NCBI GenBank assembly: GCA_016219325.1
Contig: JACRNH010000003.1
Location: 45,123 to 109,122, forward strand
DNA: 64,000 nucleotides
Origin: Candidatus Collierbacteria bacterium
GTDB lineage: Bacteria; Patescibacteriota; Microgenomatia; UBA1400; JACPES01
Reading direction: 5' to 3'
Part shown: positions 12,657 through 56,083 of the stretch, one piece after another
Numbering within the stretch: position 1 is the stretch's first letter
How the letters are laid out: every line of letters starts with the position of its first letter
Made by a program: the position numbers and the translations under genes
Notes under the pieces: model-generated
Seen by the model: only the letters and a program-made list of their open reading frames with translations
What the model was told of the DNA's origin: nothing
Database searches by the model: none

Positions 12657-14024
12657 ATGAAAATCAAATTAATTCCCATAATTGGCCTTGAAGTTCACGT
12701 GGAATTGAAGACGAATTCCAAAATGTTCTGCGGATGTAAAAACGATCCGTTTGGGGCTTCAAAACCGAATATTTACACCTGTCCGGTGTGTTTGGGTTTG
12801 CCGGGAGCCCTGCCGGTGCCGAATAAGAAAGCGATTGAATTAACCGTAAAATTAGGCTTAGGTTTGGGTTGTGAAATAAATCGAGAATCCCGGTTTGACC
12901 GGAAACATTATTTTTATCCGGATCTGCCGAAAGGCTATCAGATCAGCCAATATGAGAAACCGTTCGCGTCTGGCGGTGAGCTGAAATTCAGAATTCAGAA
13001 TTCAGAATTCAGAATTATAAGAGTTAGAAGGGTGCATTTGGAAGAGGATACGGGGAAATTGCTGCACCGGAAAATAGACGGTGAAGAAGTTTCTTTGATT
13101 GATTTTAACCGTTCCGGCGTGCCATTGGCGGAAATTGTGACCGAACCGGATATCAGGTCGGCGCAGGAAGCAAAAGAGACGGCTAAAAAAATTTATCAGA
13201 TTGTTAGGGCCTTGGGCGTGTCTGATGCGGATATGGAGAAGGGAAGCATGAGGTTGGAAGCGAATATCTCTCTCTCCGAGATAAAGGAAAAAGGAAAAAG
13301 GAAAAAGGAAAAAGGGGAACTTCCGGACTATAAGGTGGAGATCAAGAATATTAATTCTTTTAGATTTATGGAAAGGGCGATAAATGCGGAAATTGAGAGA
13401 CAGGAAAAAATTCTTGAGTCCGGTAAAAAAGTGCAACAGCAAACTTTTGGTTGGGATACGGAAAAACAGGAGTTGAAACCGCAAAGGGTGAAAGAAGAAG
13501 CCGCGGATTATCGGTATTTTCCGGAACCGGATATACCGCCAATCGTTTTGTCAGACGATTGGATATTAAAGATCAAAGATCAAATATCAAAATTGCCGGA
13601 AGAAATATATGAAGGATTGATTAGAACTGGAATTGCGGCAGCGGCGGCGAAGGTGATTGTGGGAGATAGGGAGTTAGCGGAGAAAATTAATGGGATAATT
13701 AGGGAAATTAAGGAGATTGGAGATATTAGGGATATTGGAAACTGGGCGTTGCATCATCAGGAGATGATTAAGGAAAAACCGGTGGATGAATTAATTTCTT
13801 TATTTAAGCAAGGGAGAGAAGGGTTAGTTTCAGATTCCGGCCAACTTAAACGATGGGTTAAGGAAGTTGTTGAAGACAATGTTCAAGCGGTGAATGATTA
13901 TAGAAAAGGCAAAGAAGCGGCATTAATGTTTTTGGTTGGACAGGCGCAAAGATTGGCTAAAGGGAAAGCTGATGTTAGTTTGGTTAAAGATATGTTAAGC
14001 TCAAAATTATCAAGTGATTTATGA
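12657..14024 (+). CDS. gatB: Glu/Asp-tRNA amidotransferase subunit B
   Basis: N-terminal IGLEVHVEL...CPVCLGLPGALP GatB signature. ATG 12657 is preferred over the ORF-track TTG at 12648. It has in-frame micro-repeats at 12986-13017 ((CAGAATT)4), 13283-13316 (AAGGAAAAAGG x3) and 13691-13740. Confidence 0.85.
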   Translation: MKIKLIPIIGLEVHVELKTNSKMFCGCKNDPFGASKPNIYTCPVCLGLPGALPVPNKKAIELTVKLGLGLGCEINRESRFDRKHYFYPDLPKGYQISQYEKPFASGGELKFRIQNSEFRIIRVRRVHLEEDTGKLLHRKIDGEEVSLIDFNRSGVPLAEIVTEPDIRSAQEAKETAKKIYQIVRALGVSDADMEKGSMRLEANISLSEIKEKGKRKKEKGELPDYKVEIKNINSFRFMERAINAEIERQEKILESGKKVQQQTFGWDTEKQELKPQRVKEEAADYRYFPEPDIPPIVLSDDWILKIKDQISKLPEEIYEGLIRTGIAAAAAKVIVGDRELAEKINGIIREIKEIGDIRDIGNWALHHQEMIKEKPVDELISLFKQGREGLVSDSGQLKRWVKEVVEDNVQAVNDYRKGKEAALMFLVGQAQRLAKGKADVSLVKDMLSSKLSSDL

Positions 14025-30852: not shown

Positions 30853-31260
30853 ATGTTACTCCATCTCTCTCTTGCTACTCCTCTTAAGAAAGTTTTAGAG
30901 ATTGACGAAGTTGAAATCGTTAATGCTCCGGCGGAAATGGGTGACGTTGGAATTTTGCCGAATCATGCTCCGTTTATGTCCAGACTTAAAGACGGGGTGA
31001 TAAATTACCGGATCGGGGGAAATAATTTTTATGTCGGAGTTAACGGAGCCTTTATGGATGTAGCCGAAAATCAGGTGACTATAATTTCTGAAGCCGCAAT
31101 TTTGCCGGAGGACGCTGATTTAAAAAGAGCTCAAGAAGCAAGGGATAGGGCGAAGGCTGAATTGGAAAAAAGACTGGAAGGAACAGATTTTAAGATGGTG
31201 GAAGCGGAGTTGAGAAAAGCGCTTTTAGAGATGAAATTATTGGAGCACGTTAAAAAATGA
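30853..31260 (+). CDS. atpC: F0F1 ATP synthase subunit epsilon
   Basis: Size, position and a beta-sandwich plus helical-hairpin pattern consistent with the epsilon subunit. Confidence 0.75.
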   Translation: MLLHLSLATPLKKVLEIDEVEIVNAPAEMGDVGILPNHAPFMSRLKDGVINYRIGGNNFYVGVNGAFMDVAENQVTIISEAAILPEDADLKRAQEARDRAKAELEKRLEGTDFKMVEAELRKALLEMKLLEHVKK

Positions 31261-31337
31261 GTAATGAGTAGAAAGTAATGAGTAATGAATAAAATAACAT
31301 TATTTTCTACTTTCTATTTTCTACTCATTATTTTTTT
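31259..31337. terminator. AGTAATGAG/TAGAAAGTA-family inverted-repeat hairpin followed by a T7 tract (a likely intrinsic terminator after atpC)
   Basis: GAGTAATGAGTAGAAAGTAATGAGTAATGAAT ... ATTATTTTCTACTTTCTATTTTCTACTCATTA then TTTTTTT immediately before the ruvC ATG. Confidence 0.6.
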
Positions 31338-31826
31338 ATGATTATCTTAGGCATTGACCCCGGATTTGCCAGAATGGGATGGGGAGTAATCAGCAAAAAC
31401 GGCGCAAAATTTTCACTGGTAGCTTACGGATGTCTGGAGACTTCTGCCGATGTCGGTTTGCCAGACAGGTTGGAAATGATATTTGACGGGATTCTCAAAG
31501 TAATAAAGAAGTACAAGCCGGATTTGGTCGGCATAGAAACTCTTTTTTTTAACACTAACGCCAAAACCGCGGTCAAGGTAGGGGAGGCGAGGGGAGCGAT
31601 ATTGGTGGCGCTGAAAAAAGCCGGAATTAAATCAGCGGATCTGACTCCTCTTCAAGTGAAACAAGCTGTAGCTGGTTACGGCCGGGCGGAAAAATCTCAA
31701 GTCCAAAAAATGGTTAAGACCTTGTTAAATCTAAAAGAAATCCCCCATCCTGACGACGCCGCCGACGCTTTAGCCATCGCCCTCGCTGCTGGATCAATTG
31801 TAAAGTATCAGATACTTTACAACTAA
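31338..31826 (+). CDS. ruvC: Holliday junction resolvase RuvC. Its last 8 codons are supplied by a palindromic repeat.
   Basis: N-terminal ILGIDPGFARMGWGVI with the catalytic Asp, and C-terminal DDAADALAIAL. The terminal IVKYQILYN is encoded by the 25-bp palindrome at 31798-31822. Confidence 0.85.
   Translation: MIILGIDPGFARMGWGVISKNGAKFSLVAYGCLETSADVGLPDRLEMIFDGILKVIKKYKPDLVGIETLFFNTNAKTAVKVGEARGAILVALKKAGIKSADLTPLQVKQAVAGYGRAEKSQVQKMVKTLLNLKEIPHPDDAADALAIALAAGSIVKYQILYN
31798..31822. repeat. Palindrome copy 1 (TTGTAAAGTATC A GATACTTTACAA), forming the 3' codons of ruvC
   Basis: Perfect 12-bp arms with a 1-nt spacer. Confidence 0.9.
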
Positions 31827-31846
31827 TATTTGCAAATATAGTTCGT

Positions 31847-32575
31847 TTAATCTTCAGCATCAATCGCAACTGGACGAAGAAGCGTTGAATCTGAATTAGA
31901 AAATTGAGCCTCAACAAATTCGCGGTATTCAGTAGGTCTGTTTCTGAATAATCCAATAACAAACTTTGGCTTTGAAATAGAGAAAGGGGTTTTAGTCGGG
32001 AAGAGATAGTAGTCGTTAATATTGCTCCATTGCCAATTTTCCGGTTTGTTAACCAGTCCGGCCATGGTAGGGTTAATATGGATATATCTGGATACATGCA
32101 TGACTCGTTCGTCCGTATCTAGTTCTTTGATCTTAAACCTTCCCTGAAATAGCGGCCCAACTCGTTGATTATCGTGATTAAATTTATGAGCGTATGTTAT
32201 TCCAATCCGTTTCATGAATTCCGAGATTGGAGACTGTAAAGTATCTGATACTTTACAGATGCGAATAAGGAAATGGAAATGGTTTGGCATTAAACAATAA
32301 GCCAGAAGTTCGATAATGTTTTTGAACATACCGTTGCCTTTAGGATCAGCTGTAAACGAAACAGGCTTATTTTTCATTCTCCAGCGCATCGAAAATGGCG
32401 ATTGATGCTGTAAGGTATCAGATACTTTACAGTCAGGGAAGCCAATTAAAAAATAACGCAGAATTTCGCGGAAGTCAAAGTAGTCAGACTCCCTTTTGAA
32501 TATTTTCCGCCTATTTACCCCGCGGTTATAGACATGATAAATTCCGTTTTCGTGATAATCAGGCCTAATATACAT
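31847..32575 (-). CDS. tnpA: IS200/IS605-family Y1 (HUH) transposase / REP-associated tyrosine transposase-like protein
   Basis: YHVYNRGVNRRKIF N-terminal motif, HUH motif (MPNHFHFLI) and the catalytic Tyr region (RYIHINP). The ORF-track start at 32836 is a stop-free upstream extension, so ATG 32575 is used. Confidence 0.75.
   Translation of the reverse strand: MYIRPDYHENGIYHVYNRGVNRRKIFKRESDYFDFREILRYFLIGFPDCKVSDTLQHQSPFSMRWRMKNKPVSFTADPKGNGMFKNIIELLAYCLMPNHFHFLIRICKVSDTLQSPISEFMKRIGITYAHKFNHDNQRVGPLFQGRFKIKELDTDERVMHVSRYIHINPTMAGLVNKPENWQWSNINDYYLFPTKTPFSISKPKFVIGLFRNRPTEYREFVEAQFSNSDSTLLRPVAIDAED
32234..32258. repeat. Palindrome copy 2 (CTGTAAAGTATC T GATACTTTACAG), in-frame inside tnpA and encoding CKVSDTLQ
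   Basis: Perfect 12-bp arms. Confidence 0.9.
32408..32432. repeat. Palindrome copy 3 (CTGTAAGGTATC A GATACTTTACAG), in-frame inside tnpA and encoding CKVSDTLQ
   Basis: 12-bp arms with 1 mismatch. Confidence 0.9.
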
Positions 32576-32586
32576 ATGTGGATAAG

Positions 32587-32609
32587 TGTAAAGTATCAGA
32601 TACTTTACA
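32587..32609. repeat. Palindrome copy 4 (TGTAAAGTATC A GATACTTTACA), 12 nt upstream of the tnpA ATG
   Basis: Perfect 11-bp arms. Confidence 0.9.
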
Positions 32610-32696
32610 AGAAGACAAGATGCGAGAACGTCTATCGGTTGGATAGAACTATCGGGTGAGTAGAATAAAGCGACCAGAATAATAATTTTACGAAAT

Positions 32697-33113
32697 GTGG
32701 TATATTTGCTACATATGTCAGTAGACGAGTTACGGATAAGTTTAGCCGATGTCCTTGGGTCTAAGAAATGTAGCCAGGACCAGTGGATGATCGCACCGCA
32801 TCTTACAAAGTCCGGAAAAGACCTTAGAATTGCCACGTCTGTAAAAAATCATTTTGATAAGCTGCACCGAGAACAGCCTTTTAGAAGTTCGACATCAGCC
32901 CTTCGCGATGACCTTCGGCAATTAACGCTTACTGAAACAAACGTAATTTTAGATTCATTTGAATCTCTTAAGCCTGAAGAGTCTCAGAATCAATTATTAT
33001 ATCCAGCTTTCAGAGAAGTCATAATCGCCGCTCATGAGGCAGACGTAGTTGATAAACATCGACTATTGGGAAAATTTGCCGTTTCGCTTCTTCGATTGGT
33101 AGATAGCGAATAA
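32697..33113 (+). CDS. hypothetical protein between the IS element and ruvA
   Basis: A 138-aa ORF with no recognizable motifs. Confidence 0.3.
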   Translation: MVYLLHMSVDELRISLADVLGSKKCSQDQWMIAPHLTKSGKDLRIATSVKNHFDKLHREQPFRSSTSALRDDLRQLTLTETNVILDSFESLKPEESQNQLLYPAFREVIIAAHEADVVDKHRLLGKFAVSLLRLVDSE

Positions 33114-33719: not shown

Positions 33720-34741
33720 AAGATCAGAAAACAGAGAGCAGAGAACAAAAAGCAGAAGAAATTTTTGATTCATCTCTCCGTCCGAGCAAATTTGACGAAT
33801 TTACCGGTCAGTCACGGGTAATTGAGAATTTAAAGGTTACAATTGAGGCGGCTAAAAACCGCAAAGAGCCTTTGGATCATTTGCTTTTATACGGACCTCC
33901 GGGGTTGGGAAAAACTACTCTTGCCCATATTATCGCGGCTGAAATGGGAGTGAATATCCGAATAACTTCAGGTCCGGCCATTGAAAGATCAGGCGATTTA
34001 GCCAGTATTTTAACCAATTTACAAGAGGGAGACATTTTATTTATTGATGAAGTCCACCGCTTGCATAAAGTTGTTGAGGAAATGCTTTATCCGGCAATGG
34101 AGGATTTCGCCTTGGATATTATTTTAGGAAAAGGTCCGTCTGCCCGGACCGTCAGGCTGGATCTGCCGAAGTTTACTTTAATCGGAGCCACCACCAGAGT
34201 CGGTTTGATCGGATCGCCGATGAGGGACAGATTTGGGATTATCCACCGCCTGAATTTTTATGAAGATGAGGAATTGTGCCATATTGTTAAGCGTTCATCT
34301 AGGCTATTGAAAATGGAAGTAGATCAAGAATCTGCTCTGGAAGTTGCCAAAAGAAGCAGGGGTACTCCCAGAATTGCCAATAGGCTTTTAAAACGTTCGC
34401 GTGATTTCAGCCAAGTCAGATTTAAGGGGCTGCTAAACAGAAATGTGGTTGACAAGGCTTTGCAATTAATGGGGGTGGATTTATTGGGATTGGATGAATC
34501 CGACAGAAGGATTTTATCGGCCATCATCAATAAACATGGCGGCGGACCGGTAGGAGTAGAAACGATTGCAGCCACAGCCCATGAAGACATCGGAACGATC
34601 GAAGATGTGTTTGAGCCGTTCCTGATGCAAATTGGATTTTTAAAACGGACTCCGCGGGGCAGGGTGGCGACAAAAAAAGCTTACCAACATCTTGGTTTAT
34701 CTTATCCTCAATCTGGCACAGGGCAGGAATCGTTGCTTTAA
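33716..34741 (+). CDS. ruvB: Holliday junction branch migration helicase RuvB
   Basis: [11 protein letters not shown] start, Walker A ([11 protein letters not shown]), Walker B (FIDEVHRL) and RuvB-C winged helix. It overlaps ruvA by 4 nt. Confidence 0.9.
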
Positions 34742-34742
34742 T

Positions 34743-34818
34743 GTCATTCCCGCGAAAGCGGGAATCTATATAAATAATTATCTTATCTACATAGATTCCG
34801 TGTCGAGCACGGAATGAC
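34743..34818. repeat. MITE/REP-like element (GTCATTCC-hairpin-GGAATCTAT ... ATAGATTCC-hairpin-GGAATGAC), full copy after ruvB
   Basis: GTCATTCCCGCGAAAGCGGGAATCTATATAAATAATTATCTTATCTACATAGATTCCGTGTCGAGCACGGAATGAC. Confidence 0.75.
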
Positions 34819-34827
34819 AATGACAAT

Positions 34828-35783
34828 ATGAAGTTATTTATTAAGCTATTAGTCACTATTTGTATTTTAGGAGCGCTTAAGCCAGAACCAATATTTGCAG
34901 CCGCGGAAAATAAACTTGGGATTCATATTCTGGAGACGGAAGAATTAGGCGAAGTGTCCAAGCTTTTCCCGGATGGCGGCTATATAACCGTTCCGGTAAG
35001 ATTGGACCAGCTGGAGGCATCAAAGTGGCAAAAATTTTTTGACGAGTCGGATAAATTTCGGTTTATTCCGATAATTAGATTTGCGACCAGCCACAACGGA
35101 AAATATTGGGAACGGCCGACAAAACGCGATATCGTAAATTTTGCCGATTTCTTCTCCAAGCTTGATTGGCACAGGCAGGAGTTAATTGTGATCGCCTTTA
35201 ATGAACCAAATCACGCTCCGGAATGGGGCGGAAAAGTTGACCCGGATAATTACGGCCAAAGCCTGACTTTTCTGGTTAATTGGTTTGCGACAGAACCGAA
35301 AAAATATTTAGTTCTTCCGGCGGCCCTTGACGCTGCTGCTTCCAATACTGACACGACTATGAGTTCAAATTTATTTCTTGACAAGTTGCTATCTAAATTC
35401 CCCGCAACAATTAATAGCCTTTCCGGCTGGAACAGTCATGCTTATCCCAATCCCGGATTTACCGGCCGGCCGGTTGATTATCATAAAATGAGCGTTAGGT
35501 CTTATCAATTCGAACTGGAAACTATTAAGAAAAGAATTGGAAAGGACTTGTCTGTTTATATCACTGAAACAGGCTGGGATAATACCAAAAAGAATGACAG
35601 TTTGATCGCCGGATATTTTAAGTTTGCTTACGAAAATATCTGGTACCCTGACAGAAAAGTGGCGGCGGTAACCCCATTTTTATTCAACGCCCAAACGATG
35701 CCTTTTTCCGCCTTTTCTCTTCTGGATGATAACGAAAAACCGACAATGGTTTATGAGATGATACAGAAATTAGGAAAGGAATT

Positions 35784-35787: not shown

Positions 35788-36202
<415 letters not shown>

Positions 36203-36916
36203 ATGATATACATTTTGCATGGTGACAATATTGACGCCAGCCGGAAATCGTTTATTGAGACGATTGCTGAATTAAAAGCCGGCGGAATTGAAGAAGTCGT
36301 TAGATTAAACGGAGCAGAAATTGTCCAGTCCGATTTAATCCAGGCCTTAGAATCGCAAAGTCTTTTTGGCGGCGATAGAATTGTAGCTATAGAAGGCATA
36401 TTTTCCCGCCGCGTTTCCAAAGAGAAAGAAGCATTGTTAATATATATTTCTTCGCAACTCGCAACTGGCAATTCGCAATTAGCCCTTTTATTGTGGGAAG
36501 GAAAAAAGATTTTAGCAACCGGATTAAAAAAATTTACAGGTAAGCCTGGTGTGGAGATTAAAGAATTTAAATTGCCGCGGCTTTTATATACTTTTTTGGA
36601 CCGGATTTATCCCAAAAACGGGAAATCGGCTTCCGTCATATTTAATCAACTGATAGCCGAAGAGCCGGTTGAATTAGTTTTTTATTGGATGGTAAAACGG
36701 ATAACGGAATTGATTCTGGAAAATTCGCCATCAGGATCCGGCGGCGGTTATGACGATTGGAGAAGGCAAAAATTAATGGATCAGGCGTCAAGGTGGACCG
36801 AAAAAAGTTTAATTAATTTTCATAAAAAATTAACAGAAATTGATGAAGCCGTTAAAACCGGCTCCACCCCATCGGATTTATCATCCCACCTTGACATTGC
36901 CTTGTTAAGTTTGTAG
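36203..36916 (+). CDS. holA: DNA polymerase III delta subunit-like (HolA-like) protein
   Basis: N-terminal IYILHGDN...SLFGGDRIVAI pattern resembling clamp-loader delta. At 237 aa it is short. Confidence 0.45.
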   Translation: MIYILHGDNIDASRKSFIETIAELKAGGIEEVVRLNGAEIVQSDLIQALESQSLFGGDRIVAIEGIFSRRVSKEKEALLIYISSQLATGNSQLALLLWEGKKILATGLKKFTGKPGVEIKEFKLPRLLYTFLDRIYPKNGKSASVIFNQLIAEEPVELVFYWMVKRITELILENSPSGSGGGYDDWRRQKLMDQASRWTEKSLINFHKKLTEIDEAVKTGSTPSDLSSHLDIALLSL

Positions 36917-36929
36917 TATTTAGGTCTTC

Positions 36930-38270
36930 ATGAAAATTGATCCTTCGATTTTCAAGGCATACGATATCAGAGGAGTTTACCCCACTCAGTTGGACGAGAA
37001 GATTGCATATTTAGTCGGGCGGAGCTTTGCTGTTTTCCTGAAGCCTAAAAAAGTCATTGTCGGACGGGATATGAGATTGTCCGGTCCTGTCCTGAAAAAG
37101 AATTTAATTGCCGGTTTAATTGATCAGGGAGTTGATGTAATTGACGTTGGAATGGTATCCACAGACGCTTACTATTTTACATGCACAAAATTGGGAATTC
37201 CCGGGATTATGGTGACTGCTTCCCATAATCCGAAAGAGTTTAATGGATTTAAAATGGTCAGAAAGATGCCGTATTTGTTGAGCGGCGATGAAGGGATTCA
37301 GGACATCAGAAAATTGGTTGAAAATGGTAAATTTTCCAAAGTAATCAAAAAAGGGGAAGTTGAAAAACGCGATTATACAGATCAATTTATCAACAAGGTT
37401 TTATCATTTATTAATCCCTCCGAAATTAAACCCTTAAAAATTATTGCCGATACAGCCAATGGAATGGTGGGTCCGTTTTTAACTAAACTTTATAAAAATC
37501 TGCCGGTTAAACTAAAAATAATTTACGGAAAACCCGACGGAAATCTTCCCAACCACGGTTTGGATCCTTTGATGCCGGAAAATAGGGTAAAAATTGAAAA
37601 ACTGATTGTATCGGAAAAAGCCGATTTGGGGTTTATGTTTGACGGAGACGGAGACCGTTTTTTTGTCATTGACGACAGGGGAAAATTCGTTTCAGGAGAT
37701 TTTTTAACCGCGCTTTTGGGTAAATATTTATTGGAGAAATATCCTAGGTCTAAAATTATTTATGATATCAGGGCATCCTGGGCGGTGCCGGATTTAATCG
37801 CCGAAAATGGCGGAAAGTCCATGTTTGAAAGAGTCGGCCACGCGTTTATAAAACGGAGAATGGCCGATGAAAATGGTTTATTCGCCGGCGAAATTACAGG
37901 GCATTATTATTTCCGGGATTTTAATTATTCGGATTCAGGATTGATTCCGTCTTTGCTGGTTTTGGAAATGTTGTCCCGAAAAAAAGTTAAAATGTCGGAT
38001 TTGCTAAAACCTTTGGAAGAAAAATATTTTATATCCGGAGAAATAAATTCCAAAGTTGCCGACCCGCTGTCTAAGATTAAACAATTAACTCAAAAATATA
38101 AAGACGGGCAGCAGAATATGCTGGACGGAATAACTGTTTTCTATAAAGATTGGCATTTTAACGTCAGAATTTCAAATACAGAATCTTTATTGCGGCTTAA
38201 TTTAGACGCTAAATCAAAGTCTTTAATGGAAGAAAAGCGCGATGAAATTTTAGCCCTCATCCGTTCTTAA
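36930..38270 (+). CDS. Phosphoglucomutase/phosphomannomutase
   Basis: Active-site TASHNP motif, metal-binding FDGDGDR motif and the alpha-D-phosphohexomutase domain order. Confidence 0.85.
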   Translation: MKIDPSIFKAYDIRGVYPTQLDEKIAYLVGRSFAVFLKPKKVIVGRDMRLSGPVLKKNLIAGLIDQGVDVIDVGMVSTDAYYFTCTKLGIPGIMVTASHNPKEFNGFKMVRKMPYLLSGDEGIQDIRKLVENGKFSKVIKKGEVEKRDYTDQFINKVLSFINPSEIKPLKIIADTANGMVGPFLTKLYKNLPVKLKIIYGKPDGNLPNHGLDPLMPENRVKIEKLIVSEKADLGFMFDGDGDRFFVIDDRGKFVSGDFLTALLGKYLLEKYPRSKIIYDIRASWAVPDLIAENGGKSMFERVGHAFIKRRMADENGLFAGEITGHYYFRDFNYSDSGLIPSLLVLEMLSRKKVKMSDLLKPLEEKYFISGEINSKVADPLSKIKQLTQKYKDGQQNMLDGITVFYKDWHFNVRISNTESLLRLNLDAKSKSLMEEKRDEILALIRS

Positions 38271-38375
38271 AAGAAAAATTAATTTTTTCTTTCCGATAAT
38301 TATTTTGACTAAATAATTATCTGGGCTAATAGCCAATTATCTGATAACTCAAAAATTAATTTCAAAATAGTAATT

Positions 38376-38402
38376 TATAAAATGTTGTACTACATTTTAT
38401 AT
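38376..38402. repeat. 27-bp palindrome TATAAAATGTTGTACTACATTTTATAT abutting the stop codon of the trpR-like gene
   Basis: Arms ATAAAATGT/ACATTTTAT around a GTAC core. A second copy lies at 38854-38880. Confidence 0.85.
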
Positions 38403-38852
38403 TTAGAAGGGTACCTCGGTTTTTTCTACTTTTTCCCATTGTCTTCTTCGCTGACTTTTCCAATTAGTCGGTCCAAACCATAAAGCAGAGCTTTCGGTAT
38501 CCTGAAGCGCCGATAGATGGGCAACCTCTTTGGCGGCATCTTCTTGAATTATAGATTCAAGTAAAGACCGATACCCGCTTCCTTTTACTTCTAACCAGGT
38601 TTTAACCCTGTAGATAGTTGGAAATGACACTTTTAATTTATCTGAAATTTCGCGGGCACCAACGTGTTTTAAAAGCATTAAAGCAACACCGATTCATTTT
38701 GAAATCATAATTTTTTCCGTACCAGTTAATAAATCATCAACAAAGTCAGCGGCTAAAGATGCTTGAGCGCACCTATTAATACAGTCAACAAGAAGAGACT
38801 GTAATTTTTCTTTTACTTCAGGTTTAATATATTGGACAGAAACTTGAGCCAT
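38403..38852 (-). pseudogene. TrpR/YerC-YecD-like HTH regulator gene interrupted by an in-frame TGA
   Basis: ATG 38852 to TGA 38696-38694 gives 52 aa. The same frame continues through ATG 38678 to 38403 with FVDDLLTGTEKIMISK*IGVALMLLKHVGAREISDKLKVSFPTIYRVKTWL, which matches the YerC/TrpR-like consensus FxDDLxT..E...R..VAxML..G...R.I......S..TI.RVK. The stop aligns to a conserved Arg (CGA to TGA). Confidence 0.6.
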
Positions 38853-38853
38853 A

Positions 38854-38880
38854 TATAAAATGTCGTACTACATTTTATAT
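38854..38880. repeat. 27-bp palindrome TATAAAATGTCGTACTACATTTTATAT, 1 nt upstream of the trpR-like start codon (candidate operator/promoter)
   Basis: Near-identical to the copy at 38376-38402 (one central T/C difference). It contains TATAAAAT, which resembles a -10 element. Confidence 0.85.
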
Positions 38881-39019
38881 TAGTTGTAAAGTGGAGCGCT
38901 GTCTGTTCTTGCGTTGAAATTACAAAGATTGCAGAGATTGCAAAGTTGGCAGATGCTGATATGATAGAAAAACCAAGATATATTTTTCATAAATCCTATT
39001 CATTTTCATTAAACATAAT

Positions 39020-40096
39020 ATGAGTTTTAACATTTTAGATTCCCGGGAAGAGATTGCCAAAGTTGATTTGGGAAACGTGCTGGGGTCGGTTGAGGCTTTA
39101 CCGCAACAATGTCTGGACGCTTGGGAAATGTCTCAAAATATTTCTATTCCCGATTCCTACAAACAAATTGAGAATATGGTGATGTGCGGAATGGGAGGGT
39201 CCGGACTTGGGGCGAGAGTAATAGAGTCTGTTTATTCTGCAAAACTAAAAATTCCGTTAATCCGCGTCAACGGGTACGATCTGCCGGCGTTTGCCAATGA
39301 AAGAAGTTTAATTTCCTGTTCCAGTTACTCCGGATCAACCGAAGAAACGATTCAAAACGCCAATCAGGCGATAGCTAAAAATCTCAAATGGATGGGTATA
39401 GGCACCGGCGGAAAATTATTAGAATTAGCGGAGAAACATAATGTTCCATTTTATAAAATAGTTCCGAAATTTAATCCTTCCAACCAGCCGCGGATGGCAA
39501 TCGGCTATTCCGTGATCGGCCAATTGGCGCTGGCGGCTCATGCCGGAATTGTCTCAATTGATAAAAAAGAAATTAAGGAAATAGCGGATGTGATGTCAGA
39601 AGCAATTGATAAAACAAAAGTCGAGGTTCCTGAAAATTCAAACTCCTCCAAGAAATTGGCTTTAGCCATGAAAGGTAAAATTATTGTTTATGTTGCCGGA
39701 GAACACCTAACCGGTCCGGTACATGTGGCAAATAATCAATTAAACGAGAATGCCAAAAATGTATCTTTTGATTTTCAGATTCCGGAACTCAATCATCATT
39801 TAATGGAAGGGCTTAAGCATCCGGAAACCAATCCCAAAGACATTTTATTTGTTTTTGCTTTTTCCAAACTTTATTCTGAAAGAGTTCAAAAAAGATTTGA
39901 GTTGACTAAACAGGTGGTGGAGAAAAACGGCATCGGCACATTTTCAATTGAACTTAATTCTTCTTCGAAATTATCACAGGCATTTGAGCTGATTCAGCTC
40001 GGAGCTTACGCCAATTTTTATCTTTCAGTTCTCTATGGCCAAAATGCTGCCCCCATCCCTTGGGTTGACTGGTTTAAAGACCAGATGGCGAAGTAA
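39020..40096 (+). CDS. Bifunctional phosphoglucose/phosphomannose isomerase (SIS domain)
   Basis: SIS-domain pattern (MCGMGGSGLGARV ... SCSSYSGSTEET) typical of archaeal-type PGI/PMI, adjacent to pgm/pmm. Confidence 0.75.
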   Translation: MSFNILDSREEIAKVDLGNVLGSVEALPQQCLDAWEMSQNISIPDSYKQIENMVMCGMGGSGLGARVIESVYSAKLKIPLIRVNGYDLPAFANERSLISCSSYSGSTEETIQNANQAIAKNLKWMGIGTGGKLLELAEKHNVPFYKIVPKFNPSNQPRMAIGYSVIGQLALAAHAGIVSIDKKEIKEIADVMSEAIDKTKVEVPENSNSSKKLALAMKGKIIVYVAGEHLTGPVHVANNQLNENAKNVSFDFQIPELNHHLMEGLKHPETNPKDILFVFAFSKLYSERVQKRFELTKQVVEKNGIGTFSIELNSSSKLSQAFELIQLGAYANFYLSVLYGQNAAPIPWVDWFKDQMAK

Positions 40097-41069
40097 ATTT
40101 CCTGAATAATTTAAGGTCGGTTTTAACCACTGAATTCCAACCGGGGGTTAAGTTGTGGTCGGCTCCGGGATATTGATAGAGTACGGCATCTTTCTTCAGC
40201 GACTGTAAATTGCTGATTAGATCCATAGACCATTTCCACGGGACCGCTTCGTCGCCGGTGCCCTGATGAACAATCAGCGGAGTTTCTATCCGGTCAAGAT
40301 AATTGGTCGGGGAAAACAGTTCCGGATCATAAATTGACTCAAAATCGGCAATAACTTTCCGCAGGTATTTTCCGTGGTCGTCTGAATCATCCGTATAGTA
40401 AAGAATTGAATAAGGAAAAGGTTTGGAGACCGGGGCCCAAAAAGTAGCCGCCTTAAATTTATTGGTGACAGCCAGAACGGAAAGCCCGATCTGCCCGCCA
40501 TTGGAATGCCCCCATAAAAATATATTTCCCGTATCCGCCACTTGCAGATTGGAAATTGATGCTAATAATTGGAGAACGGTTGCCGGTTTGATCAGGCGGG
40601 ACTCAATTTCGTTTTCCGGTTCCGGATCCGAACTGCCGAACCCCAAAAAATCCGGAGCTAAAGTTATAAATCCGTTGCCGGCGAAAAACTCAGCCGCTCT
40701 TTGGGTTCCGATTCCGGGCTTATAGATTTCTTTGTCGACATATCCCCGCAGCATAATTATCACCGGACATTTTTGTTTAGAAGAAGAACCGTAGCCAACC
40801 GGAATGTTGGCAGTTCCGCTGACCAAGCCTTCTTGGGTATCAAATGTAAATTGGCCGTCTGTCAGAGAGATAGCCTTGGGGGTAAAAACGGATTGTTTCA
40901 AACCGTCAAATGAATATTTAAGCAAAGGCCGTGGGATTGTGGTTGGAGCTGAGGATAAGGGGGACAGGGACAGTCCTCCGATCAGCATCCCAATGACAAA
41001 TAAACAAAACAAGAGAAAGTATTGTTTCATTTTTTTCTTAAGCATTAAGTATACAGCTTTCATTGTCAT
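40074..41069 (-). CDS. Alpha/beta-hydrolase (dienelactone hydrolase / prolyl oligopeptidase-like), membrane-anchored
   Basis: N-terminal TM, nucleophile elbow GHSNGG (GxSxG), and downstream Asp/His (GTGDEAVP...ADHNL). Confidence 0.7.
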   Translation of the reverse strand: MTMKAVYLMLKKKMKQYFLLFCLFVIGMLIGGLSLSPLSSAPTTIPRPLLKYSFDGLKQSVFTPKAISLTDGQFTFDTQEGLVSGTANIPVGYGSSSKQKCPVIIMLRGYVDKEIYKPGIGTQRAAEFFAGNGFITLAPDFLGFGSSDPEPENEIESRLIKPATVLQLLASISNLQVADTGNIFLWGHSNGGQIGLSVLAVTNKFKAATFWAPVSKPFPYSILYYTDDSDDHGKYLRKVIADFESIYDPELFSPTNYLDRIETPLIVHQGTGDEAVPWKWSMDLISNLQSLKKDAVLYQYPGADHNLTPGWNSVVKTDLKLFRKFTSPSGL

Positions 41070-41123
41070 TCCTGCGAAAGCAGGAATCTATTTAAATAGA
41101 TTCCGGATCAAGTCCGGAATGAC
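41065..41123. repeat. MITE/REP-like element copy (GTCATTCCTGCGAAAGCAGGAATCTATTTAAATAGATTCCGGATCAAGTCCGGAATGAC)
   Basis: Same termini and centre as the 34743 copy, with compensatory substitutions in both internal stems. Confidence 0.8.
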
Positions 41124-41169
41124 AAAATCGAGATTGAACTTTGGAATCTAATAAGGTATTCTAAATACA

Positions 41170-52194: not shown

Positions 52195-53041
52195 GCCATC
52201 TTTAAATTCATTTAATACTTCCATCTTTCCCACCTGGTGTCCGGGGTGCGGGGATTTTGGAATTTGGGGAGCGTTAAAACAAGCCCTGGAATCATTAAAA
52301 ATAAATCCGGATCAAGCGGCATTTTTTTTCGGAGTCGGTTGTTCTGGAAACATTTCCAGTTTTATCAGAGGTTATGGTTTTCATTCACTTCACGGCCGGA
52401 GTATTGCCAATGCCGCCGGGGCTAAACTGGCTAATTATAAACTTCCTGTTATCGTAATCGCCGGTGACGGTGATATGTTGGGAGAAGGCTTAAGCCATTT
52501 TATTCACGCTGCCCGGGCCAATCATGACATTACAATAATTTTACATAATAATGGGGTATTTGGATTAACAACCGGCCAATCCTCGCCTACTGCCGAAATC
52601 GGATTTAAATCAAAACCGATGCCTTGGGAAACTACGGATGAACCGATAAACCCTTGCGCTCTGGCAATTATGCAGCAGGCCGGATTTGTATCACGGGGCT
52701 TTGCCGGGGATCAGGAAGGCTTATCCAATTTGATCAATCAGGCGATCAATCATTCGGGCTTTTCATTGGTTGATGTTCTTCAGCCCTGTGTTACATTTAA
52801 TCCGGATAAATCATACATTTGGTACAGGCAGAGAATAAAGTCTGTTGAGTCTGTTACAAGCGATGTTTTGACCGGGATTAAAAATTCATTATGGATTGAC
52901 GAGCGAATATCAACCGGAATTATTTATCAAAACTCAAGGCCCGCGTTCCATTCTAACTATCCACAATTGGTTAAAGATAATCTATTGGATACGACCGGGA
53001 AAAAGAGAGATATAAGTAAATTGCTGAATGGATTTAAATAG
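52193..53041 (+). CDS. 2-oxoacid:ferredoxin oxidoreductase beta subunit (TPP-binding)
   Basis: N-terminal Cys cluster (CPGCGDFG) and a TPP-binding GDG-(X)n-N motif (GDGDMLGEG...LHNNGVFGLTTGQ). Confidence 0.8.
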   Translation: MPSLNSFNTSIFPTWCPGCGDFGIWGALKQALESLKINPDQAAFFFGVGCSGNISSFIRGYGFHSLHGRSIANAAGAKLANYKLPVIVIAGDGDMLGEGLSHFIHAARANHDITIILHNNGVFGLTTGQSSPTAEIGFKSKPMPWETTDEPINPCALAIMQQAGFVSRGFAGDQEGLSNLINQAINHSGFSLVDVLQPCVTFNPDKSYIWYRQRIKSVESVTSDVLTGIKNSLWIDERISTGIIYQNSRPAFHSNYPQLVKDNLLDTTGKKRDISKLLNGFK

Positions 53042-53064
53042 ATTCCCGCTTTCGCGGGAATGAC
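53038..53064. repeat. MITE/REP-like half element (ATAGATTCCCGCTTTCGCGGGAATGAC) after the oxidoreductase beta gene
   Basis: Matches the right half of the 34743 element, with the stem in the complementary orientation. Confidence 0.7.
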
Positions 53065-53066
53065 AG

Positions 53067-53696
53067 TTAATTAACCACAGGGTGGAATTTGCGGATAACG
53101 CCCACAACTTTTCCCTGAACTCTGACGCGGGTGGCGAAAATCGGCTGCATCTGGGAGTTTGCCGGTTCCAGCCTGATTCTGGTGGCTTCGCGGAAAAATC
53201 TTTTTAAGGTGGCCAATCCATTGTCTAAAAGGGCAACGACTATGTCTCCGTTATGAACCTCATCCTGTTCTTCAACGACTACATAATCTCCGTCAAGAAT
53301 TCCATCGTCAATCATTGATTGGCCTTTGACTTTTAAAACGTAAGCCCGGCGTTTTCCGGATAACATGTCAGGCGAAATGGATAGCGTAGTATGAGGATCT
53401 GCAAACGGGACAATCGGCGATCCGGCAGCGATAAATCCCATTACAGGCAATTCTACTCCGGTTGAAGTTTTGGAAATCTTGCGGTCGATTAATTCGATTC
53501 CGCGGACGGTGCCTTCATACTTTTTAATAATTCCTTTTCTGATTAAAGCTTCTAAATGTTCGTGGACTGTGGCTAAAGAAGTGACTCCCAATGCTATGGC
53601 AATTTCCTGTAAAGTAGGGGAATATCCGTGCTGCTGGATATATTGTGATAAAAATTCTACAATTTGTCTTTGGCGTCTGTAAAGTGTTACTGGCAT
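53067..53696 (-). CDS. lexA: LexA repressor
   Basis: N-terminal winged HTH and a C-terminal S24 peptidase (GDYVVVEEQDEVHNGDIVVALLDN, with catalytic Ser/Lys). It is divergent from uvrB. Confidence 0.85.
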   Translation of the reverse strand: MPVTLYRRQRQIVEFLSQYIQQHGYSPTLQEIAIALGVTSLATVHEHLEALIRKGIIKKYEGTVRGIELIDRKISKTSTGVELPVMGFIAAGSPIVPFADPHTTLSISPDMLSGKRRAYVLKVKGQSMIDDGILDGDYVVVEEQDEVHNGDIVVALLDNGLATLKRFFREATRIRLEPANSQMQPIFATRVRVQGKVVGVIRKFHPVVN

Positions 53697-56005: not shown

Positions 56006-56026
56006 ATGTTATCTTTGTCATTCCGT

Positions 56027-56083
56027 GCTTGACACGGAATCTATACAGATTTCATCTCAAGGCTGGAATGGCATAAATATCCT
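56027..56083. repeat. MITE/REP-like element copy after uvrB (left half intact, right half degenerate)
   Basis: GTCATTCCGTGCTTGACACGGAATCTATACAGATTTCATCTCAAGGCTGGAATGGCA. Confidence 0.7.

What the first reader, a model, noticed from the sequence alone, without database searches (positions are those of the whole stretch)
38376..38880. TrpR/YerC-like regulator gene with an in-frame TGA at a conserved Arg codon, bracketed exactly by two 27-bp palindromes
Reading the minus strand from ATG 38852, 52 codons are followed by TGA (38696-38694). The same frame then continues into a TrpR-like HTH. Spliced conceptually, the product matches the YerC/YecD consensus across the stop (FVDDLLTGTEKIMISK*IGVALML... 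versus FFDDLCT..E...AQR..VARML...). The stop aligns with a conserved Arg, which is a CGA-to-TGA change. The rest of the window uses TGA as a stop. The gene is therefore a recent nonsense pseudogene, a sequencing error, or a readthrough or recoding site. The palindrome TATAAAATGT(T/C)GTACTACATTTTATAT abuts the start codon (38854-38880) and the stop codon (38376-38402). That pattern fits an operator for this repressor, or the ends of a small cassette.
Basis: partly seen in the sequence, partly recalled or inferred. Interest (0 to 1): 0.6.

Follow-up and report, generated by a model that had tools for sequence, protein, structure and literature searches.

The report
Broken TrpR-like regulator between its palindromes
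A small DNA-binding regulator gene in an uncultivated groundwater bacterium (Candidatus Collierbacteria) was recently knocked out by a single C-to-T change, and the two 28-bp palindromes that bracket it belong to a small dispersed family that is most likely the protein's own binding site.

Summary
On the minus strand, 38852-38403 encodes a 149-codon TrpR/YerC-fold protein with an in-frame TGA (38696-38694) at codon 53. All 31 close homologs are 149 aa with Arg there, encoded by CGA, CGT, CGG, CGC or AGA. Arg53 is one of five invariant residues in 50 diverse family members. Two other sequencing runs carry the identical allele, and TGA is an ordinary stop here. So this is a real, recent nonsense mutation, not an error or recoding.

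The palindromes are 28-bp 11-6-11 elements (38853-38880 and 38375-38402), in direct orientation 478 bp apart.

- They are conserved around the gene in orthologs.
- More distant orthologs carry different palindromes or repeats at the same place.
- One related 588-kb contig has five exact copies, two of them flanking this gene.
- Other copies lie near dinB, recG and DUF1653-aspS, and in frame inside murI and a membrane-protein gene.
- A sister lineage has precisely lost the gene plus one repeat.

Best reading (about 0.55): these are cognate binding sites of an autoregulated TrpR-family protein. That protein is now inactivated in this strain. Binding was not tested. Interest is moderate.

The parts
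38403..38852 (-). Disrupted gene for a 149-codon TrpR/YerC-fold HTH protein (ATG 38852-38850, natural stop TAA 38405-38403).
   Evidence: Translation. Pfam PF01371 at 42.4 bits across the stop. 90% identical over all 149 positions to the intact ortholog P0001.
38694..38696 (-). In-frame TGA at codon 53, replacing the family-invariant Arg (CGA>TGA).
   Evidence: The identical allele is present in L001 (SRR12113407) and L002 (SRR12113395).
38694..38852 (-). N-terminal 52-codon fragment ORF. It covers the part that aligns with the N-terminal helices of the TrpR fold.
   Evidence: It was called as a separate 52-aa gene in L002.
38403..38678 (-). 91-aa downstream ORF starting at the internal Met59. 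It contains the HTH and the C-terminal extension. It is the only piece annotated in the public record (HZB78_01125).
   Evidence: P0022 is 100% identical. Alone it is below the Pfam threshold (20.4 bits).
38853..38880 (.). Start-proximal 28-bp palindrome (gene strand ATATAAAATGT-AGTACG-ACATTTTATAT). It ends directly at the ATG. Proposed autoregulatory binding site.
   Evidence: It sits in the same position in orthologs L003, L011, L133, L013 and L148.
38375..38402 (.). Stop-proximal 28-bp palindrome (gene strand ATATAAAATGT-AGTACA-ACATTTTATAA). It begins directly after the TAA, between the convergent yerC-like and pgm genes. Proposed auxiliary binding site. It is also one end of the deletion-prone direct repeat.
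   Evidence: Orthologs carry a copy 6-90 nt after the stop. It is the recombination junction in the empty-site genomes L118 and L132.
39015..39038 (+). Weak third match (3 mismatches) overlapping the pgi start codon. Probably chance, and not counted as part of the system.
   Evidence: 0.15 such matches expected per window. I did not examine the corresponding DNA in orthologs; their called PGI N-termini differ slightly (MSFNILD in the window, MSFNVLD, MSLSILD, MNNSILE elsewhere).

Best explanation
The locus is the gene for a 149-aa DNA-binding protein of the TrpR/HisR(YerC) fold, together with two copies of its cognate 28-bp palindromic binding site. The protein belongs to a large, uncharacterised subfamily that carries an extra C-terminal helical extension of about 45 aa.

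Proposed mechanism (inferred, not shown):
- The protein binds the 11-6-11 palindrome as a symmetric dimer, possibly as a pair of dimers.
- The copy that abuts the ATG overlaps the promoter or 5' end of its own gene and gives negative autoregulation.
- The second copy, 478 bp away at the 3' end, is an auxiliary site. It could act through cooperative binding or looping, or as a roadblock against the convergent pgm transcript.
- About ten further copies elsewhere in related genomes are additional binding sites of the same protein.

In the strain in this window the protein has just been inactivated by a CGA-to-TGA nonsense mutation at invariant Arg53. By my own reading of the alignment and from memory of the TrpR structure, this corresponds to TrpR Arg54. 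Because the two sites are direct repeats, the gene is also easy to lose. A sister lineage has deleted exactly the gene plus one repeat.

Shown: the stop codon, its reality and its recency; the fold; the conservation, dispersal and lineage-specific variation of the palindromes; the precise deletion.

Inferred: that the protein binds the palindrome, and what that binding does.
For: Nonsense mutation, real and recent.
- TGA falls at a column where all 31 close homologs have Arg.
- Arg53 is one of five invariant positions in 50 members that share only 24-51% identity.
- Ortholog codons are CGA, CGT, CGG, CGC or AGA.
- L001 and L002, from two other runs, are 100% identical to the window over 4929 and 1356 nt, including the TGA.
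- Codons differing between the window and L003 are 30 synonymous and 15 non-synonymous. The intact pair L011/L003 gives 44 and 19.
- TGA is the natural stop of this gene in L003 and L011.

Fold and family.
- Pfam PF01371 scores above threshold.
- The AlphaFold model of ortholog P0001 has pLDDT 79.
- Its best PDB matches are E. coli TrpR (6fal, 1tro) and HisR-like proteins (3g1c, 3kor, 3frw), with target-normalised TM 0.72-0.80.
- The family profile hits 3g1c and 3frw at 5e-9.
- Published work shows that B. subtilis YerC is HisR, a TrpR-family repressor. It binds lineage-specific 20-bp palindromes with a 6-bp variable centre, and a site sits in front of its own gene in about half of genomes (PMC9413887).

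Link between the protein and the palindrome.
- In one 588-kb Collierbacteria contig there are 5 exact copies, and 2 of them flank this 450-bp gene. The same scan of 185,579 species gave almost only singletons elsewhere.
- The start-proximal copy is retained 0-2 nt from the ATG in orthologs down to 58% identity.
- More distant orthologs have different repeats at the same place, and their recognition helix differs too:
  - SFPTIYRVK with ATAAAATGT-N6-ACATTTTAT, or its symmetric variant TAAAATAT-N6-ATATTTTA.
  - SGQTVWTVR with ATCTAATSATTCGAATSATTAGAT, three copies.
  - SSATVWRVK with ATTTAATGTTTTAAAACATTAAAT.
  - SLGTVYTVK with GTATCAATCTTTCGAAAGATCGATAC.
  - SDQTIWGIK with a 22-nt direct repeat.
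- Within each of these loci the repeats occur only around this gene.
- The arm sequence itself is conserved, not just the pairing. The yerC loci retrieved through the protein (L003, L011, L013) keep 18/18 arm positions at the downstream site, while the flanks are 47-74% identical.

Precise loss.
- L118 and L132 are syntenic with the window and have a single palindrome and no gene.
- They are nested among gene-carrying genomes. PGI identity to the window is 89% for L118, against 90% for L011, 77% for L003 and 61% for L013.
Against: - No binding was tested.
- Several copies are not in promoter positions. The stop-proximal copy lies between convergent genes in every lineage. Two conserved copies are in frame inside coding sequences: murI, and a 537-aa membrane-protein gene.
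- The lineage that deleted the gene still has at least 9 perfect copies in the same two metagenomes. No gene copy flanked by canonical palindromes was found in those samples. So the palindromes may be maintained independently of this protein.
- Symmetric double changes occur (A..T to G..C in L119, C..G to G..C in L014), and the centre switches repeatedly among AGTACA, TGTACT and TATATA at orthologous sites. This fits hairpin or gene-conversion dynamics at least as well as protein reading.
- 22 conserved positions are more than one HTH dimer normally reads.
- No acceptable sigma-70-type promoter for the gene was found overlapping the palindrome on the gene strand. The palindrome leaves no room for a Shine-Dalgarno sequence.
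- The arm conservation at sites retrieved by the pattern scans is partly an ascertainment effect.
Confidence: 0.55

Rival explanations
1. The palindromes are a REP-like family of short dispersed hairpin elements: selfish, structural, or gene-boundary signals such as terminators, promoters or RNA-processing sites. They spread and are homogenised by recombination. The regulator does not bind them, and their position around the gene is incidental or reflects insertion preferences.
For: - The family is dispersed, sits at gene ends and abuts stop codons.
- Copies occur in frame inside murI and a membrane-protein gene, always in the one open frame ATA AAA TGT ... ACA TTT TAT.
- There is a precise 27-nt presence/absence in murI. 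P0046/L153 lacks it although it is nested in the carrying clade.
- The centre switches among discrete states at orthologous sites, as expected from copy-to-copy conversion.
- Copies persist in the lineage that lost the gene.
- The same window holds a genuine Y1 (IS200/RAYT-type) transposase gene invaded and flanked by its own, different palindrome. So such elements are active in this genome.
- The element folds into a hairpin of -7 to -9 kcal/mol.
Against: - Two of five copies in 588 kb flank one 450-bp gene.
- Six lineages with different repeat sequences all place them at this gene, one copy next to the ATG.
- The arm sequence, not only the pairing, is conserved.
- Copy number is about 5-12 per genome, far below REP families.
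- There are no conserved flanks beyond 28 bp.
- There is no G+C-rich stem or T-run, so it is not a canonical terminator.
- The gene encodes no nuclease domain.
Confidence: 0.22
2. The two palindromes are site-specific recombination sites with a dif/pdif-like 11-6-11 architecture. The gene plus one site is a small cassette that is excised and inserted by a tyrosine recombinase.
For: - The 11-6-11 layout resembles Xer sites.
- The copies flanking the gene are in direct orientation wherever the centre is asymmetric: window, L011, L133, L013.
- An exact empty site with one copy exists in L118 and L132.
- Gene content next to palindromes differs between strains: an SDR gene in L124 and L148, and non-orthologous pgm genes.
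Against: - Synteny (pgi, this gene, pgm) is stable across genomes from 61 to 90% PGI identity. The empty-site genome is nested among carriers. So the event is a loss, which ordinary recombination or slippage between 28-31-bp direct repeats explains.
- No recombinase gene lies within several kb.
- Both arms are identical, and the centre flips orientation at orthologous sites. That is not expected for a directional core.
- Ten dif-like sites in one chromosome would be hazardous.
- There are no relatives in viral contigs.
Confidence: 0.07
3. The TGA is decoded (readthrough, suppressor tRNA, selenocysteine or an alternative code). Full-length protein is still made, so the gene is functional.
For: - UGA is generally the leakiest bacterial stop codon (general knowledge).
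- The frame stays open and is otherwise undamaged.
- Some CPR lineages reassign UGA (general knowledge).
- An in-frame ATG five codons downstream could allow reinitiation of a 91-aa fragment.
Against: - TGA ends 8 of the 50 long ORFs here. It is the natural stop of this very gene in L003 and L011.
- No ortholog has TGA at codon 53.
- Any readthrough would insert something other than the invariant Arg.
- No tRNA with a UCA anticodon is in the window.
- The 91-aa fragment lacks the N-terminal third of the Trp_repressor domain and falls below the Pfam threshold. In TrpR that part forms the dimer core (from memory).
Confidence: 0.05
4. The T at 38696 is a sequencing or assembly error and the gene is intact.
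For: It is a single-base difference from CGA, in a metagenome-assembled genome.
Against: Contigs assembled independently from two different runs (SRR12113407 and SRR12113395) are 100% identical to the window over 4.9 and 1.4 kb, including the TGA. No database protein matches the window allele with Arg at that position; the best intact hit is 91% identical.
Confidence: 0.03

Closest known systems
TrpR / HisR (YerC) repressor-operator systems (Pfam PF01371)
   Same: - Same fold and the same conserved Arg in helix C. By my own reading of the alignment, this is TrpR Arg54.
- Palindromic target with a 6-bp less-conserved centre.
- Lineage-specific operator sequences.
- A site in front of the regulator's own gene (PMC9413887).
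   Different: - 149 aa rather than under 110 aa, with a conserved C-terminal extension of about 45 aa.
- Below the NCBIfam yecD_yerC and TrpR cut-offs.
- The element is 28 bp with 22 conserved positions.
- A second copy lies at the 3' end of the gene.
- Copies occur inside coding sequences.
- No trp or his genes lie at any site found.
REP elements with their RAYT transposase (REPtrons / REPIN-RAYT; PMC3116915, PMC3337134)
   Same: - A single-copy small gene flanked by copies of a palindrome that is also dispersed in the genome.
- The palindrome sequence differs between lineages along with the gene.
- Inheritance appears to be vertical.
   Different: - The protein is an HTH of the TrpR fold with no HUH/Y1 nuclease domain.
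- Copy number is about 5-12 per genome, not tens to hundreds.
- A genuine Y1 transposase with its own, different palindrome lies 6 kb away in the same window.
Repressors with auxiliary operators and DNA looping (LacI O1/O2, GalR OE/OI, DeoR); from general knowledge
   Same: Two identical sites a few hundred bp apart, one at the promoter or start and one within or beyond the regulated gene.
   Different: - Looping and tetramerisation are not known for the TrpR family.
- The spacing is not phase-conserved between orthologs (478, 482, 493, 504 and about 565 bp).
- The second site lies beyond the stop codon.
Rickettsia palindromic elements and other MITE-like repeats that insert in frame into genes (reviewed in PMC10969869)
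   Same: Palindromic repeat copies are tolerated in frame inside conserved protein-coding genes, with presence/absence between relatives.
   Different: - The element is only 27-28 bp, against 100-150 bp.
- Very few copies.
- It is tightly associated with one regulator gene.
Xer/dif and pdif modules of Acinetobacter plasmids (general knowledge)
   Same: 28-bp 11-6-11 sites bracketing a small gene module, with an empty-site variant.
   Different: - The arms are identical.
- The centre orientation is not fixed.
- No recombinase is nearby.
- Chromosomal synteny is stable, and the polymorphism is a loss.

Membership tests
TrpR family (Pfam PF01371 Trp_repressor) | Sequence match to the family profile above the curated threshold | tested here: met
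   The joined product scores 42.4 bits against a cut-off of 27 and spans the stop. Orthologs carry precomputed PF01371.
TrpR family (Pfam PF01371 Trp_repressor) | TrpR-like all-helical fold with the HTH in helices D/E | tested here: met
   AlphaFold model of ortholog P0001 (pLDDT 79). Top Foldseek hits are TrpR and HisR-like structures, target-normalised TM 0.72-0.80.
TrpR family (Pfam PF01371 Trp_repressor) | Intact reading frame, including the conserved helix-C arginine (TrpR Arg54 equivalent) | tested here: not met
   The window allele has TGA at that codon. Orthologs have Arg. The window copy is therefore a pseudogene or null allele of a family member.
TrpR family (Pfam PF01371 Trp_repressor) | Sequence-specific binding of a dimer to a palindromic operator of about 20 bp | not testable with these tools
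   Only indirect evidence: palindromes conserved at the gene and varying with the recognition helix between lineages.
YerC/YecD = HisR equivalog (NCBIfam TIGR02531) | Score above the equivalog cut-off | tested here: not met
   26.7 bits against 42.2. TrpR TIGR01321 scores 20.4 against 67.25. This is a distinct subfamily.
YerC/YecD = HisR equivalog (NCBIfam TIGR02531) | Sites in front of histidine biosynthesis or uptake genes | tested here: not met
   Neighbours of the sites are pgi, pgm, dinB, recG, recJ, nth, DUF1653-aspS, an SDR gene, murI and a membrane-protein gene. No his or trp genes appear.
REP-RAYT (REPtron) | Gene flanked by its cognate palindromes, which are also dispersed in the genome | tested here: met
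REP-RAYT (REPtron) | Gene encodes an HUH/Y1 tyrosine transposase | tested here: not met
   The only significant Pfam hit is Trp_repressor; the others are weak generic HTH matches, with no Y1_Tnp. The fold is TrpR.
REP-RAYT (REPtron) | Tens to hundreds of repeat copies per genome | tested here: not met
   5 exact copies in a 588-kb contig. About 10 contigs with copies in one metagenome.
Xer/dif-type recombination module | Two recombinase-binding arms around a 6-8-bp asymmetric core with fixed orientation | tested here: inconclusive
   The 11-6-11 layout is present. But the arms are identical, and the centre is symmetric (TATATA) or flips orientation at orthologous sites.
Xer/dif-type recombination module | Associated tyrosine recombinase, and the module found in different contexts | tested here: not met
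   No recombinase appears among the called neighbours. The locus is syntenic in Collierbacteria. The polymorphism is a nested loss.
Programmed UGA recoding (selenocysteine, readthrough, reassigned code) | UGA conserved at the site in orthologs, or UGA not used as a stop in the genome | tested here: not met
   Orthologs have Arg codons. TGA terminates 8 of 50 long ORFs, and terminates this gene in L003 and L011. No tRNA-Sec or suppressor tRNA is in the window.

The most novel reading that the evidence does not exclude
The 149-aa TrpR-fold proteins may not be ordinary metabolic repressors. This is a large family (799 clusters at 50% identity) whose close relatives here come from Collierbacteria and groundwater metagenomes. 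They could be the protein half of a vertically inherited 'binding protein plus dispersed palindrome' system, formally analogous to REP-RAYT but without a nuclease. Each lineage would have its own 24-28-bp palindrome. That palindrome would bracket the gene and mark a handful of conserved chromosomal positions, many next to DNA-repair genes and some in frame inside essential genes. It would be kept uniform by copy-to-copy conversion. The protein would then act as a genome-architectural or palindrome-managing factor (for example a roadblock, boundary or hairpin-control protein), or as the repressor of a non-LexA DNA-repair regulon.
Probability: 0.15. Interest if true: 0.7.

Novelty: new variant of a known kind. 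Interest (0 to 1): 0.4.

Why it matters
The premature stop on its own is an ordinary strain-level loss of function. What is worth keeping is the context.

- It points to a large, unstudied subfamily of TrpR-fold proteins, seen here in Collierbacteria and in groundwater metagenomes, and supplies a concrete candidate DNA target (a 28-bp 11-6-11 palindrome). Regulation in these organisms is almost entirely unknown.
- Nature has provided three states of the system in close relatives: intact, nonsense and precisely deleted. Comparing metatranscriptomes across these could reveal what the protein controls without cultivation.
- Regulator-flanking direct repeats make a gene prone to clean deletion.
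- Short palindromes can sit in frame inside essential genes such as murI.

If the protein does not bind the palindrome, the locus is still a clear example of a low-copy REP-like family in a reduced genome.

Tried and rejected
- **Alternative genetic code or selenocysteine.** Rejected. TGA stops 8 of 50 long ORFs. TGA is the stop of this gene in orthologs. Orthologs have Arg codons at position 53. No suppressor tRNA is in the window.
- **Sequencing error.** Rejected, because the allele is identical in two other runs.
- **Downstream 91-aa ORF as the real full-length gene.** Rejected. Homologs are 149 aa and the Pfam domain spans the stop.
- **Second intact paralog in the window.** None found.
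- **Known RNA family or riboswitch at the palindromes.** No Rfam match at E<=1.
- **Intrinsic terminator.** None by the consensus scan; the stems contain only two G-C pairs.
- **Clear sigma-70 promoter for the gene inside the palindrome.** None on the gene strand. One candidate on the opposite strand uses the palindrome arm as its -10 and points toward pgi. Promoter assignment is left open.
- **Third palindrome at 39015-39038.** Probably chance.
- **Phage or mobile-element origin.** No relatives of the protein in IMG/VR, and only singleton pattern hits.
- **His or trp regulon.** No such genes at any site.
- **Orthologous junctions of the other palindrome sites inside the window (to look for empty sites).** None of those genes is in the window.
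- **DNA of the window genome's own murI (P0038).** Not on record.
- **Organism names for distant family members.** None held.
Full report
**1. The observation**

Reading the minus strand from ATG 38852 gives 52 codons, then TGA at 38696-38694, then 96 further codons in the same frame to TAA 38405-38403. The conceptually joined product matches Pfam Trp_repressor (PF01371) across the stop: residues 20-100 against profile positions 5-86 of 88, 42.4 bits against a threshold of 27. The 91-aa downstream ORF alone scores 20.4 bits and the 52-aa piece scores nothing.

A 27-nt palindrome occurs exactly twice in the 64-kb window, at 38376-38402 and 38854-38880. No further match appears with up to three mismatches, and none is expected by chance. 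The two copies form a 31-nt direct repeat that is 94% identical and spaced 478 bp apart. One copy ends at the ATG and the other begins after the TAA.

A weak third match at 39015-39038 (3 mismatches, overlapping the pgi start) is probably chance.

**2. The organism and the gene**

The 91-aa ORF is identical to a protein annotated as hypothetical (HZB78_01125) in a Candidatus Collierbacteria genome. That places the window in the Candidate Phyla Radiation.

Thirty-one homologs were found. Nearly all are 149 aa and start MAQVS. The closest intact one (P0001) is about 90-91% identical over the full length. Every homolog has Arg at the position of the stop. In orthologous loci the codon is CGA, CGT, CGG, CGC or AGA, so the window's TGA is a single C>T transition from CGA.

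An exhaustive profile search shows a large family: 799 clusters at 50% identity with E<=1e-10, mostly 145-150 aa and matched end to end. In 50 diverse members (24-51% identical to P0001) only M1, S5, K52, R53 and T79 are invariant.

An AlphaFold model of P0001 (pLDDT 79) has seven helices. Its first ~100 residues superpose on E. coli TrpR (6fal, 1tro) and on the HisR-like structures 3g1c, 3kor and 3frw, with target-normalised TM 0.72-0.80. The family profile hits 3g1c and 3frw at 5e-9. In that alignment Arg53 pairs with the conserved Arg of helix C. By my own reading of the alignment, and from memory of the TrpR structure, this is TrpR Arg54, a corepressor-pocket residue.

The last ~45 residues are a subfamily-specific helical extension with conserved W125, F126, G127, T129, W131, Q138, W139 and a terminal PF. 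The protein scores below the NCBIfam cut-offs for both YerC/YecD and TrpR. It is therefore a separate subfamily, not a HisR or TrpR ortholog.

**3. Is the stop codon real?**

- Two contigs assembled independently from other sequencing runs are 100% identical to the window and contain the TGA. These are SRR12113407 (4929 nt) and SRR12113395 (1356 nt). In the second, the 52-aa and 91-aa pieces were called as separate genes.
- TGA terminates 8 of the 50 long ORFs in the window.
- TGA is the natural stop of this same gene in orthologs L003 and L011, where the window has TAA.
- No suppressor or Sec tRNA is in the window, and there is no paralog.
- Codons differing between the window gene and L003 are 30 synonymous and 15 non-synonymous. 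The intact pair L011/L003 gives 44 and 19. The gene therefore shows no long period of relaxed selection.

I conclude that this is a genuine and recent nonsense allele. Low-level readthrough or reinitiation at Met59 cannot be excluded. Neither would restore the invariant Arg or the N-terminal third of the domain.

**4. The palindromes around orthologs**

In the 91%-identical ortholog (L003, from a 588-kb contig of GCA_016183365.1) the start-proximal copy is identical apart from the centre. A second copy lies 17 nt after the stop, with centre TATATA instead of AGTACA. L011, L133 and L013 (66% identity) also have both copies.

More distant orthologs carry different repeats at the same positions:

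| Locus | Protein identity | Repeat and position |
|---|---|---|
| L148 | 58% | TAAAATAT-TGTACT-ATATTTTA flush with the ATG. This is a symmetric G..C to A..T change of the arms. Related copies lie 87 nt upstream and 34 nt downstream. |
| L150 | 55% | ATTTAATGTTTTAAAACATTAAAT flush with the ATG and again 182 nt upstream. |
| L014 / L152 | 57% / 55% | ATCTAATSATTCGAATSATTAGAT 8 nt upstream, plus two copies downstream. |
| L151 | 47% | GTATCAATCTTTCGAAAGATCGATAC flush with the ATG. |
| L015 | 43% | A 22-nt direct repeat 15 nt upstream and 8 nt downstream. |

Within each locus these repeats occur only next to this gene. The recognition-helix sequence is the same (SFPTIYRVK) in the two lineages with near-identical palindromes, and differs in the others (SGQTVWTVR, SSATVWRVK, SLGTVYTVK, SDQTIWGIK). 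This is the pattern expected for a protein and its cognate site.

It also matches what is published for the family. B. subtilis YerC is HisR, a TrpR-family repressor that binds lineage-specific 20-bp palindromes with a 6-bp variable centre. A site lies in front of its own gene in about half of genomes (PMC9413887).

**5. The palindrome is a small dispersed family**

A scan of one genome per species (185,579 species) for ATAAAATGT-N6-ACATTTTAT returned 101 stretches. Almost all were singletons in unrelated taxa. One Collierbacteria contig, however, has five exact copies: the two around this gene and three elsewhere.

A metagenome scan returned 31 more stretches, many from the same groundwater samples. 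Aligning 35 unique sites gives a compact 28-bp consensus, AT-ATAAAATGT-(AGTACA or TATATA)-ACATTTTAT-AT, with no conservation beyond it.

Recurrent, orthologous positions:

- Overlapping the stop of an 87-aa ORF and 81-87 nt upstream of dinB.
- 10-13 nt upstream of a DUF1653 gene, followed by aspS in L091, and just after recJ.
- Between divergent aspS and SDR genes.
- 125 nt upstream of recG.
- At the stop of nth and 50 nt upstream of a 122-aa gene.
- In frame inside murI.
- In frame inside a 537-aa membrane-protein gene.

The two in-gene copies use the same frame, ATA AAA TGT nnn nnn ACA TTT TAT = IKCxxTFY. Nearly all Collierbacteria MurI orthologs (63-78% identity) carry IKC[S/Y/C/G][T/I/A]TFY. 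More distant ones lack it. One nested ortholog (P0046/L153) lacks exactly 27 nt.

A MurI (P0038) on a Collierbacteria contig of the same length as the one carrying HZB78_01125 contains NIKCYITFY. I infer from this that the window's own genome has at least one more copy outside the window. The DNA was not retrievable.

At orthologous sites the 18 arm positions are identical while the flanks are 47-93% identical. The centre switches among AGTACA, TGTACT and TATATA. Sites found by pattern are biased toward intact arms. The yerC loci found through the protein (L003, L011, L013) are not, and they show the same arm conservation at the downstream site.

**6. A precise loss**

L118 and L132 come from two different metagenomes and are identical to each other at the PGI and PGM protein level. 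They are syntenic with the window on both sides at 78-85% nucleotide identity. Between pgi and pgm they have a single palindrome and no gene. Their left flank matches the window's upstream flank, and their right flank matches the window's downstream flank.

PGI identity to the window is 89% for L118. It is 90% for L011, 77% for L003 and 61% for L013, and those three all carry the gene. The empty site is therefore a nested loss, produced by recombination or slippage between the two direct repeats.

The same two metagenomes contain at least nine further perfect palindromes. No copy of the gene flanked by canonical palindromes was found in them.

**7. How it most likely works**

Best-supported reading, confidence about 0.55. 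The protein is a symmetric DNA binder whose cognate site is the 28-bp palindrome. The site flush with the ATG gives negative autoregulation. The second site is auxiliary, and the other copies are further targets. In this strain the system has just lost its protein.

Binding itself is not shown, and neither are its consequences. Two further points are only suggested: that the C-terminal extension mediates higher-order assembly, and that the mRNA is leaderless. The palindrome leaves no room for a Shine-Dalgarno sequence. The consensus scan found no acceptable promoter for the gene overlapping the palindrome.

Evidence that sits badly with a simple operator model:

- Copies between convergent genes and inside coding sequences.
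- Persistence in the deletion lineage.
- Symmetric double substitutions and centre switching, which also fit hairpin or gene-conversion dynamics.

The main rival (about 0.22) is therefore a REP-like hairpin family that the protein does not bind. This is made more plausible by a genuine Y1 (IS200/RAYT-type) transposase gene at 31847-32836. That gene is flanked and invaded in frame by its own different palindrome, TGTAAAGTATC-W-GATACTTTACA.

A recombination-cassette model (about 0.07), functional recoding (about 0.05) and sequencing error (about 0.03) are minor.

**8. Comparison with known systems**

The locus works most like an autoregulated TrpR/HisR-type repressor with its operator. The protein belongs to the Pfam family by sequence and by fold. 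It is not a HisR or TrpR ortholog: it scores below the equivalog cut-offs, it has an extra domain, and no his or trp genes lie at its sites.

The architecture resembles a REP-RAYT module in form: a gene bracketed by its own dispersed palindrome, with the sequence varying by lineage. It fails the defining test of an HUH transposase.

The 11-6-11 layout resembles Xer sites, but orientation, symmetry, synteny and the lack of a recombinase argue against that.

**9. Verdict**

The 'operator' idea is the best available reading but is unproven and incomplete.

The pseudogene itself is ordinary. The associated low-copy palindrome family and the uncharacterised protein subfamily are a modestly novel variant of a known kind. 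Interest 0.4.

Noticed in passing
window 31799-32836: A 329-aa ORF (31847-32836, minus strand) matches Pfam Y1_Tnp, the IS200/RAYT-type HUH transposase family. It is associated with four copies of its own 23-27-bp palindrome, TGTAAAGTATC-W-GATACTTTACA. One copy (31799-31821) forms the in-frame 3' end of ruvC and encodes IVKYQILY. Three copies (32235-32257, 32409-32431, 32587-32609) lie inside the long transposase-frame ORF; two of them are read as CKVSDTLQ in its translation. This looks like a REP/RAYT-type module whose gene has been invaded by its own repeats.
   Followed up: partly
window 34732-34842, 41059-41142, 53026-53075, 55993-56050: There is a second, G+C-rich hairpin repeat family, GTCATTCC(C/T)GCGAAAGC(G/A)GGAATCTAT, in intergenic regions. 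A 33-47-nt stretch of the 41063-41109 copy recurs (96-97% identical) at two places in L118. The peptide it would encode (IPAKAGI..NRFRIKSGMT) also appears inside the endonuclease III gene of L128.
   Followed up: no
window 36930-38270 and loci L003, L011, L013, L148: The phosphogluco/phosphomannomutase gene convergent with the regulator is not orthologous between close relatives. It is 33-47% identical, with lengths of 446, 454-456, 494 or 704 aa, while the PGI gene on the other side is 61-90% identical. So the gene next to the stop-proximal palindrome has been replaced several times.
   Followed up: partly
L124 5380-6900 versus L091 1780-2130: In one strain a palindrome plus an SDR gene lies between aspS and the DUF1653 gene, next to a remnant of the DUF1653 3' end. 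In another lineage (L148) an SDR gene sits between the regulator's downstream palindrome and pgm; I did not compare the two SDR genes. Gene content next to the palindromes is variable.
   Followed up: partly
L086 7652-7675; L153 1501-2160; proteins P0033-P0050: The 27-nt palindrome inside murI encodes IKCxxTFY. Its central two codons switch among S-T, Y-I, C-T and G-A across the MurI tree. One nested ortholog has lost exactly the 27 nt.
   Followed up: yes
L076, L129, L143, L146 (dinB locus); L135 (recG); L091, L124 (recJ); L128 (nth): Several palindrome sites neighbour DNA-repair genes (dinB with a small upstream DUF6504-like ORF, recG, recJ, nth). This hints at a repair-related regulon. The sample is too small to test.
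   Followed up: no
window 424-495, 13688-13750, 6114-6156, 31249-31336, 36143-36209, 44710-44804: Several A+T-rich short tandem or dispersed repeats lie in intergenic regions, with units such as GGGATATTA or AGTAATGAGTAGAAAGTA. Their function is unknown.
   Followed up: no
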